NCBI RefSeq assembly: GCF_054482525.1
Contig: NZ_CM137006.1
Reading direction: 5' to 3' (one strand)
DNA length: 64,000 nucleotides
In this document: positions 48,493 to 48,625 of the stretch, piece by piece
Position numbering within the stretch: the stretch's first letter is position 1
How the letters are laid out: every line of letters begins with the position of its first letter
Made by a program: the position numbers and the translations under genes
Notes under the pieces: generated by a model
Told to the model about the DNA's origin: nothing
The model's input: only the letters and a program-made list of their open reading frames with translations
Database searches by the model: none

Positions 48493-48527
48493 GATGCTCT
48501 CCCAAATATGAAATCTCTTGCTGGCAT

Positions 48528-48543
48528 TACAAGAATCATGCCA
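48528..48543 (-). promoter_or_regulatory. Putative sigma-54 promoter of pspG
   Basis: Minus-strand TGGCATGATTCTTGTA (TGGCA-N-TTG-type -24/-12) about 36-51 bp upstream of pspG start; pspG is a known PspF/sigma-54 target. Confidence 0.4.
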
Positions 48544-48625
48544 AAAATAATCTATTGATTTAACAGCAAAACGCCCCGCGACGGTGCGCAGGGCGTGGTG
48601 AATTTGACTACTTTTTGGTGAAAAG

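What the first reader, a model, noticed from the sequence alone, without database searches (positions are those of the whole stretch)
48493..48625. Compact pspG promoter spacer with a sigma-54-like element
The 133-bp dusA-pspG spacer contains, on the coding (minus) strand, TGGCATGATTCTTGTA upstream of pspG, consistent with the known PspF/sigma-54 dependence of pspG. The adjacent A/T-rich tract (AAAAATAATCTATTGATTTAACA) is a plausible IHF site.
Basis: partly seen in the sequence, partly recalled or inferred. Interest (0 to 1): 0.15.

Follow-up and report, generated by a model that had tools for sequence, protein, structure and literature searches.

The report
Known sigma-54 promoter of pspG

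Summary
Confirmed and ordinary. The window is E. coli. The dusA-pspG spacer is 133 bp (48493-48625) and is 100% identical to K-12 MG1655. TGGCATGATTCTTGTA lies on the minus strand at 48543..48528. It is the sigma-54 site already reported for pspG by ChIP-seq in K-12 (Bonocora 2015, site OS40, marked experimentally confirmed in EcoCyc). The orthologous sites are reported in Salmonella (ChIP-chip) and Yersinia (ChIP-seq).

A loose consensus count is not above chance. A weight matrix built from 28 other Salmonella sigma-54 sites ranks this site first in the window, at 18.9 bits. The only other hit of 14 bits or more is the fdhF promoter.

The A/T-rich tract contains a perfect IHF core, AATCAATAGATTA, at -43..-31. 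This core is conserved across 75 Enterobacteriaceae sequences.

Phylogenetic footprinting fills in the rest of the spacer. Immediately after the dusA stop codon come conserved blocks that resemble the PspF enhancer. Next is the dusA intrinsic terminator hairpin, which shows strong covariation. Then come the IHF site, the -24/-12 element, a 25-nt leader and the pspG start codon.

The primary paper that mapped the start site is not held in the library, so the start site at 48517 is a prediction.

Novelty: already known. Interest: low.

The parts
48626..48628 (-). dusA stop codon TAA (-111..-109 relative to the predicted pspG start site)
   Evidence: Sequence and ORF list; RefSeq annotation of identical DNA.
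48613..48624 (-). Conserved block U1, TTTTCACCAAAA (-107..-96). Candidate distal half-site of the PspF enhancer.
   Evidence: Non-coding but conserved as TTTCRCYAAAA in 75 Enterobacteriaceae sequences. It parallels AATTCGCCAC of the pspA upstream region. Assigning it to PspF is an inference.
48593..48610 (-). Conserved block U2, TAGTCAAATTCACCACGC (-93..-76). Candidate PspF upstream activating sequence, an imperfect inverted repeat.
   Evidence: Most conserved upstream block (T46, G48, T49, C58, A60 invariant). Matches 11 of 18 positions of the published PspF UAS TAGTGTAATTCGCTAACT (PMC4987338). The 11-mer AAATTCRCCAC occurs once in the window and once in the pspF-pspA locus. It is a perfect palindrome TTAGTC-N5-GACTAA in Brenneria.
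48571..48596 (-). dusA intrinsic terminator hairpin ACGCCCTGCG-CACCGT-CGCGGGGCGT (-79..-54). Its 5' arm overlaps the end of U2.
   Evidence: Terminator scan: 10 pairs, 8 of them G-C. RNA fold. Covariation: 96.4% of cells paired, 8 of 10 pairs changed on both sides, 0 of 500 shuffles as good, slid controls 33-60% paired.
48561..48570 (-). Terminator T-tract TTTTGCTGTTA (-53..-44). It probably also serves as the A/T-rich 5' arm of the IHF site.
   Evidence: TTTT at least 90% conserved. The dual role is an inference from the usual IHF site layout.
48548..48560 (-). IHF core AATCAATAGATTA (-43..-31). Perfect match to WATCAANNNNTTR.
   Evidence: Pattern search. C and A of TCAA and T and A of TTA are invariant in 75 sequences. 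The distance to the -24 element grows by 10-11 bp, one helical turn, in Yersinia, Rahnella and Brenneria. The layout parallels pspA: TAAATCAAAAAGATAAAAAATTGGCAC.
48528..48543 (-). Sigma-54 promoter core TGGCATGATTCTTGTA. GG at 48542/48541 (-25/-24); GT at 48530/48529 (-13/-12).
   Evidence: PWM score 18.9 bits, top hit in the window. Present upstream of pspG in all 80 loci. ChIP-seq in K-12 (PMC4591121), ChIP-chip in Salmonella at 39-fold (PMC3844500), ChIP-seq in Yersinia (PMC7657599), and gSELEX with RpoN holoenzyme (PMC8743547).
48493..48517 (-). Predicted 25-nt pspG leader starting at the predicted +1 (48517). Shine-Dalgarno GGGAGAG at 48503..48497.
   Evidence: +1 is inferred from the fixed -24/-12 geometry and agrees with the 25-bp distance in PMC4591121. 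The leader sequence was read directly. The start site was not mapped here.
48250..48492 (-). pspG coding sequence (80 aa)
   Evidence: ORF; annotation.

Best explanation
The spacer is the complete, tightly packed regulatory region of pspG, an enhancer-dependent sigma-54 promoter.

RNA polymerase with sigma-54 sits as a closed complex on TGGCAT-N5-TTGT (-26..-12). The AAA+ activator PspF binds the conserved blocks that start two bases after the dusA stop codon (-107..-76). IHF bends the DNA at AATCAATAGATTA (-43..-31), which lets enhancer-bound PspF touch sigma-54. ATP hydrolysis by PspF then opens the promoter when membrane stress relieves inhibition by PspA. Transcription starts about 25 nt before the ATG.

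The dusA intrinsic terminator lies inside the enhancer-promoter loop, so dusA transcription stops before it reaches the promoter.

Shown here: the sequence elements, their statistics, their conservation and the terminator covariation. Shown in the literature: sigma-54 occupancy, and PspF and sigma-54 dependence. Inferred: the exact PspF contacts, IHF occupancy and the start site.
For: The window is identical to K-12 across the region. The PWM score is 18.9 bits, first of 128,000 positions; the only other hit of 14 bits or more is the fdhF promoter. The element TGGCAYGnTTyTTGTAAT is found upstream of pspG in all 80 loci, from Escherichia to Yersinia, Rahnella and Brenneria, with dusA-pspG-qorA synteny.

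The K-12 ChIP-seq site OS40 has the same 17-mer and the EcoCyc 'C' flag, and pspG is up-regulated on sigma-54 overexpression (PMC4591121). Salmonella ChIP-chip gives a 39-fold ratio and there is a Yersinia ChIP-seq peak. PspF binding to a single pspG UAS and 20-fold induction are reported in PMC3709507.

The IHF core is a perfect match and is conserved. Its distance to the -24 element changes by 10-11 bp, about one helical turn, in the distant genera. The enhancer-like blocks are conserved and share a core with the pspA UAS. Terminator covariation is strong.
Against: The -12 dinucleotide is GT rather than the canonical GC. This deviation is shared with pspA and conserved, so it does not argue against function.

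The loose consensus count is not above chance. The published pspA UAS sequence does not match the spacer within 3 mismatches; the match is 11 of 18 positions.

No held paper gives the mapped start site, a PspF footprint or an IHF footprint on pspG DNA. That pspG depends on IHF rests on my recollection of the abstract of Lloyd et al. 2004.
Confidence: 0.93

Rival explanations
1. The A/T-rich tract is not a working IHF site. It is only the T-rich tail of the dusA terminator plus A/T-rich spacer DNA, whose intrinsic curvature or flexibility is enough for looping.
For: The upstream part of the tract is the terminator T-tract. Perfect IHF cores are fairly common in this window, 8 found. No IHF binding data for pspG were found: an IHF ChIP paper and its supplements do not mention it.
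Against: The conserved positions are exactly the informative ones of the IHF core: TCAA and TTA are invariant or nearly so, while the four N positions vary freely. The core is separated from the -24 element by 4 bp in Enterobacteriaceae and by 14-15 bp in distant genera. pspA has the same arrangement, and IHF is reported to act at the pspA promoter (PMC3709507).
Confidence: 0.1
2. The sigma-54-like match is incidental. pspG is expressed from a sigma-70 promoter or by read-through from dusA.
For: The consensus count with up to 2 mismatches is not enriched. The -12 element is non-canonical (GT).
Against: The sigma-70 scan finds no candidate in the spacer. A strong, covarying terminator separates dusA from pspG. 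The PWM rank, the ChIP data from three genera and the conservation in all 80 loci all point to sigma-54.
Confidence: 0.02
3. The promoter is also served by a second activator, NtrC, so pspG responds to nitrogen limitation as well as to PspF.
For: Genomic SELEX lists the dusA/pspG spacer among NtrC targets, at 58% peak height (PMC8743547).
Against: No NtrC consensus TGCACCWWWWTGGTGCA is present in the spacer within 3 mismatches. PspF is described as the specific regulator, with only pspA and pspG as its targets (PMC3041696). SELEX peaks in vitro can be non-specific.
Confidence: 0.05

Closest known systems
E. coli K-12 pspG (yjbO) promoter, pspGp (Lloyd et al. 2004; sigma-54 ChIP-seq site OS40 of Bonocora et al. 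2015)
   Same: Identical sequence over at least 231 bp, including the whole spacer. Same 17-mer, same 25-bp distance to the start codon, same flanking genes.
   Different: Nothing in the spacer. The window comes from a non-K-12 strain (100% match to PCN033; the neighbouring DUF2713 gene is only 91% identical to K-12).
E. coli pspA promoter with its two PspF UAS and an IHF site (Weiner, Dworkin, Jovanovic and Model, 1991-1999)
   Same: Same activator. Same non-canonical -12 TTGT. An IHF-like core at the same position (ATCAA at -44..-40 in pspA, -41..-37 in pspG). Same order of enhancer half-sites: CGCCAC / TTAGTG / CGCTAA in pspA against CACCAA / TAGTC / TCACCAC in pspG.
   Different: The pspG enhancer is about 12 bp closer to the promoter and is described as a single UAS with about 20-fold induction, against two UAS and about 100-fold for pspA (PMC3709507). 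The pspG enhancer abuts the end of an upstream gene and encloses that gene's terminator. The pspA enhancer overlaps the divergent pspF promoter.
Salmonella Typhimurium pspG (STM4244) sigma-54 site TGGCATGATTTTTGTAAG
   Same: Orthologous position. 16 of 18 bases identical. Strong sigma-54 ChIP signal, 39-fold.
   Different: The two Salmonella enterica subspecies loci examined (L016, L033) carry a REP-like insertion between promoter and start codon. The motif start lies 84-85 bp from the ATG instead of 51 bp.

Membership tests
Sigma-54 (RpoN)-dependent promoter | -24 GG and -12 GC elements with fixed spacing (TGGCAC-N5-TTGCW) | tested here: met
   TGGCAT-GATTC-TTGTA. GG is present and the spacing is exact. 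The -12 dinucleotide is GT instead of GC. The PWM score of 18.9 bits lies within the 16.0-24.4 range of 28 sigma-54 sites from Salmonella ChIP-chip, and the site is the top hit in the window.
Sigma-54 (RpoN)-dependent promoter | Correct orientation and a short distance upstream of a gene | tested here: met
   Same strand as pspG. The motif starts 51 bp before the ATG, and 50-62 bp before it in nearly all of the Enterobacteriaceae loci.
Sigma-54 (RpoN)-dependent promoter | An enhancer (binding site for a bEBP activator) roughly 70-150 bp upstream | tested here: met
   Conserved non-coding blocks at -107..-76 share a core with the pspA PspF UAS. PspF binding to a pspG UAS is reported in PMC3709507.
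Sigma-54 (RpoN)-dependent promoter | Occupancy by sigma-54 holoenzyme, and dependence of transcription on rpoN and the activator | not testable with these tools
   From the literature on identical or orthologous DNA: ChIP-seq OS40, ChIP-chip, gSELEX, Yersinia ChIP-seq, and PspF/sigma-54 dependence stated in PMC3068692.
Sigma-54 (RpoN)-dependent promoter | Transcription start about 12 nt downstream of the -12 element | not testable with these tools
   Predicted +1 is 48517. The primary mapping paper (Lloyd 2004) is not held. Only the EcoCyc 'confirmed' flag is available, through PMC4591121.
IHF binding site | Core consensus WATCAANNNNTTR | tested here: met
   AATCAATAGATTA at 48560..48548 is a perfect match. 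The consensus positions are conserved while the N positions are free.
IHF binding site | A/T-rich element on the 5' side of the core | tested here: inconclusive
   The 5' side is TTTTGCTGTTA, the terminator tail. It is T-rich, but it is equally explained by the terminator.
IHF binding site | Position between enhancer and promoter, with helical phase maintained | tested here: met
   The core lies between U2 and the -24 element. The distance to -24 is constant in Enterobacteriaceae and 10-11 bp longer in Yersinia, Rahnella and Brenneria.
IHF binding site | Binding by IHF, and IHF dependence of expression | not testable with these tools
   No held paper shows it for pspG. My recollection is that the abstract of Lloyd et al. 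2004 states activation by PspF and IHF. This was not verified here.
PspF upstream activating sequence | Similarity to the published UAS TAGTGTAATTCGCTAACT | tested here: inconclusive
   11 of 18 identical, so not found within 3 mismatches. The shared core AAATTCRCCAC is unique in both loci, but that pattern was chosen after seeing the sequences.
Rho-independent terminator (of dusA) | G+C-rich hairpin followed by a T-tract just after the stop codon, with base-pairing maintained in evolution | tested here: met
   10-bp stem with 8 G-C pairs, followed by TTTT. 96.4% of cells paired, 8 of 10 pairs with compensatory changes, 0 of 500 shuffles as good.

The most novel reading that the evidence does not exclude
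The pspG enhancer may not be the 'single UAS' usually drawn. It may be a three-half-site array (-> <- ->) equivalent to the pspA array.

The dusA terminator is built into the enhancer-promoter loop. Its 5' arm overlaps the PspF site and its T-tail forms the A/T arm of the IHF site. Under this reading, dusA transcription and pspG activation would interfere with each other: polymerase reading through the enhancer could displace PspF, or bound PspF and IHF could assist termination.

The conserved GT at -12 in both PspF promoters could be a regulon-specific tuning of the closed complex.
Probability: 0.2. Interest if true: 0.25.

Novelty: already known. Interest (0 to 1): 0.06.

Why it matters
It matters little beyond correct annotation, because the pspG promoter is a long-established member of the two-promoter PspF regulon. 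The comparative footprint does give a clean base-level map of how an enhancer, an upstream gene's terminator, an IHF site and a sigma-54 core fit into 108 bp. That map could guide anyone mutating this promoter or using it as a compact stress-inducible part.

Tried and rejected
- The simple consensus count TGGCACNNNNNTTGCW with up to 2 mismatches does not discriminate (31 hits against 42.6 expected). It was replaced by a weight matrix.
- The sigma-70 scan found nothing in the spacer.
- Rfam at a permissive E-value found no RNA family in 47900-48800, only two sub-threshold ctRNA hits on the qorA/pspH terminator.
- A MAFFT pairwise alignment of the pspA and pspG upstream regions misaligned the promoters. 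I used manual alignment anchored on the -24 element instead.
- The published pspA UAS sequence was not found within 3 mismatches.
- No NtrC consensus is present in the spacer.
- Papers not held: Lloyd 2004, Green and Darwin 2004, Joly 2010, Thomason 2015.
- A full-text search for a mapped pspG start site returned nothing relevant.
- An IHF ChIP paper and its supplements do not mention pspG or dusA.

Full report
**What is at the coordinates.** The window is E. coli chromosome. An 801-bp query around the finding matches 5,425 of 5,426 complete E. coli genomes, and strain PCN033 at 100%. The annotation of that genome gives the order dnaB, qorA, pspG, dusA, a DUF2713 gene, zur. On the minus strand pspG runs from ATG 48492 to the stop at 48250. 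The dusA stop codon is at 48628..48626, so the spacer 48493-48625 is exactly 133 bp. TGGCATGATTCTTGTA is at 48543..48528 on the minus strand. The quoted A/T-rich tract is at 48543-48565 on the plus strand. From 48470 to 48700 the window is identical to K-12 MG1655, so the K-12 literature applies base for base.

**Is the sigma-54 match more than chance?** A loose consensus search with up to 2 mismatches gives 31 hits against 42.6 expected, so on that criterion the match means nothing. I built a position weight matrix from the 28 other intergenic sigma-54 sites in Table 3 of Samuels et al. 2013 (PMC3844500), leaving pspG out. The site scores 18.9 bits. That is first among all positions on both strands and falls inside the 16.0-24.4 range of the training sites. 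The window holds 2 hits of 18 bits or more against 0.075 expected, and 4.4% of 1000 shuffles reach 18.9 bits anywhere. The other hit, at 12436-12453 (18.5 bits), is the fdhF promoter. That result serves as an internal positive control.

**Direct evidence from the literature.**
- Bonocora et al. 2015 list sigma-54 ChIP-seq site OS40 with the motif TTGGCATGATTCTTGTA assigned to pspG. The predicted start is 25 bp from the start codon and the promoter is flagged as experimentally confirmed in EcoCyc. pspG was one of only five genes with upstream intergenic sites that were up-regulated on sigma-54 overexpression (PMC4591121).
- The orthologous Salmonella site TGGCATGATTTTTGTAAG gave a 39-fold ChIP-chip ratio.
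- Y. pseudotuberculosis has an RpoN ChIP-seq peak upstream of pspG (PMC7657599).
- Genomic SELEX recovered the dusA/pspG spacer with RpoN holoenzyme (PMC8743547).
- PspF binding to a single pspG UAS and about 20-fold induction are described in PMC3709507.
- PspF/sigma-54 dependence is stated in PMC3068692.

**Comparative anatomy.** A scan of one genome per species returned 80 pspG loci, from Escherichia to Yersinia, Rahnella, Biostraticola and Brenneria. All loci with enough flanking sequence have dusA upstream and qorA downstream. All 80 carry TGGCAYGnTTyTTGTAAT upstream of pspG. An alignment of 75 Enterobacteriaceae sequences shows a block pattern. Positions below are relative to a predicted +1 at 48517.
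- dusA stop codon, -111..-109.
- Block U1, TTTTCACCAAAA, -107..-96.
- Block U2, TAGTCAAATTCACCACGC, -93..-76.
- A hairpin, -79..-54.
- A T-tract, -53..-50.
- wwTCAAnnnnTTA, -43..-31.
- The sigma-54 core, -26..-11.

After the core come a 25-nt leader with GGGAGAG and then the ATG.

**Terminator.** The hairpin ACGCCCTGCG/CGCGGGGCGT followed by TTTT is flagged as terminator-like and appears in both the minimum-free-energy and centroid RNA folds. Across the 75 sequences 96.4% of cells pair, and 8 of 10 pairs show changes on both sides. No shuffle out of 500 does as well, and sliding the partner by 1-3 columns drops pairing to 33-60%. This is the intrinsic terminator of dusA. It lies inside the enhancer-promoter interval, and its 5' arm overlaps the last bases of U2.

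**IHF.** AATCAATAGATTA is a perfect WATCAANNNNTTR match. There are 8 such matches in the window against 2.8 expected. In the alignment the C and A of TCAA and the T and A of TTA are invariant, while the four central positions vary freely. This is the pattern expected of a protein-recognition core rather than of generic A/T richness. The core ends 4 bp before TGGCA in Enterobacteriaceae and 14-15 bp before it in Yersinia, Rahnella, Biostraticola and Brenneria, which is one helical turn more. The pspA promoter has the same arrangement, TAAATCAAAAAGATAAAAAATTGGCAC, and IHF is reported to assist PspF there (PMC3709507). I recall that the abstract of Lloyd et al. 2004 states that pspG is activated by PspF and IHF. 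I could not verify this because the paper is not held.

**Enhancer.** The published PspF UAS TAGTGTAATTCGCTAACT (PMC4987338) is pspA UAS I. U2 matches it at 11 of 18 positions, so a search allowing 3 mismatches finds nothing. The case for U1 and U2 as the enhancer rests on four points.
- They are strongly conserved although non-coding.
- Read as half-sites, pspG has CACCAA, TAGTC(A) and TCACCAC. pspA has CGCCAC, TTAGTG and CGCTAA in the same -> <- -> order and with similar spacing.
- In Brenneria the array is a perfect GACTAA-CTG-TTAGTC-GTTTT-GACTAA.
- The 11-mer AAATTCRCCAC occurs once in the 64-kb window, in U2, and once in the 4-kb pspF-pspA locus, in the UAS region. That pattern was chosen after seeing the sequences, so the counts are only illustrative.

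The literature speaks of one UAS at pspG. Whether U1 is part of that UAS cannot be settled here.

**Mechanism.** The picture is the standard bEBP/sigma-54 mechanism. A closed complex forms at -24/-12, PspF binds at -107..-76, and IHF bends the DNA near -48 to bring the two together. ATP-dependent opening follows once PspA inhibition is relieved. The sequence elements, their statistics, their conservation and the terminator are shown here. Sigma-54 occupancy and PspF/sigma-54 dependence are shown in the cited papers. The start site at 48517, the PspF contacts and IHF occupancy are inferred.

**Rival explanations.**
- A chance match with sigma-70 or read-through expression is excluded for practical purposes. 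There is no sigma-70 candidate, a strong terminator intervenes, and ChIP in three genera supports sigma-54.
- The tract being mere A/T-rich DNA rather than an IHF site remains possible, at about 10%.
- NtrC co-activation is suggested only by a SELEX peak and finds no NtrC consensus in the spacer.

**Verdict.** The finding is correct and already known.

Noticed in passing
window 12436-12453 (+), with the ATG at 12503: This is the second sigma-54 promoter in the window. TGGCATAAAAGATGCATA scores 18.5 bits and lies upstream of fdhF, whose reading frame carries the in-frame TGA selenocysteine codon at position 140. It matches ChIP-seq site OS41 of Bonocora et al. 2015.
   Followed up: partly
window 48083-48193 (-): Exact match to the K-12 small RNA PspH (b4758) in the pspG 3' UTR. 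PspH is reported to act as a sponge of the sRNA Spf and may have its own promoter (PMC5145812). It ends in a bidirectional terminator at 48092-48114 that is shared with the convergent qorA gene.
   Followed up: partly
window 50024-50980 (-): The low-GC DUF2713 gene is a single intact 318-aa ORF here. In K-12 the same region (91% identical) is split into yjbL and yjbM by a 1-nt difference next to a run of seven A's, so the K-12 pair looks like a frameshifted version of one gene.
   Followed up: partly
window 48529-48530 (-); L002 2026-2027; loci L004-L083: Both PspF-dependent promoters (pspA and pspG) have GT instead of the canonical GC at -13/-12. This is kept in nearly all 80 Enterobacterales pspG loci; L033 has GC and four others have GA or GG. 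Among the rows of Bonocora's intergenic-sense table that I read, only pspA and pspG end in TTGTA.
   Followed up: partly
L078 (Yersinia vastinensis) about 1313-1500; L016 and L033 (Salmonella enterica subspecies) about 1434-1500: Repetitive elements sit between the conserved promoter and the pspG start codon: an ERIC-like element in Yersinia and a REP-like palindrome in Salmonella. They lengthen the leader without disturbing the promoter module.
   Followed up: no
window 48493-48625: Genomic SELEX (PMC8743547) lists this spacer as an NtrC target, yet no NtrC consensus is present within 3 mismatches. The G+C-rich terminator stem (GCGCACC...) may explain a non-specific signal.
   Followed up: partly
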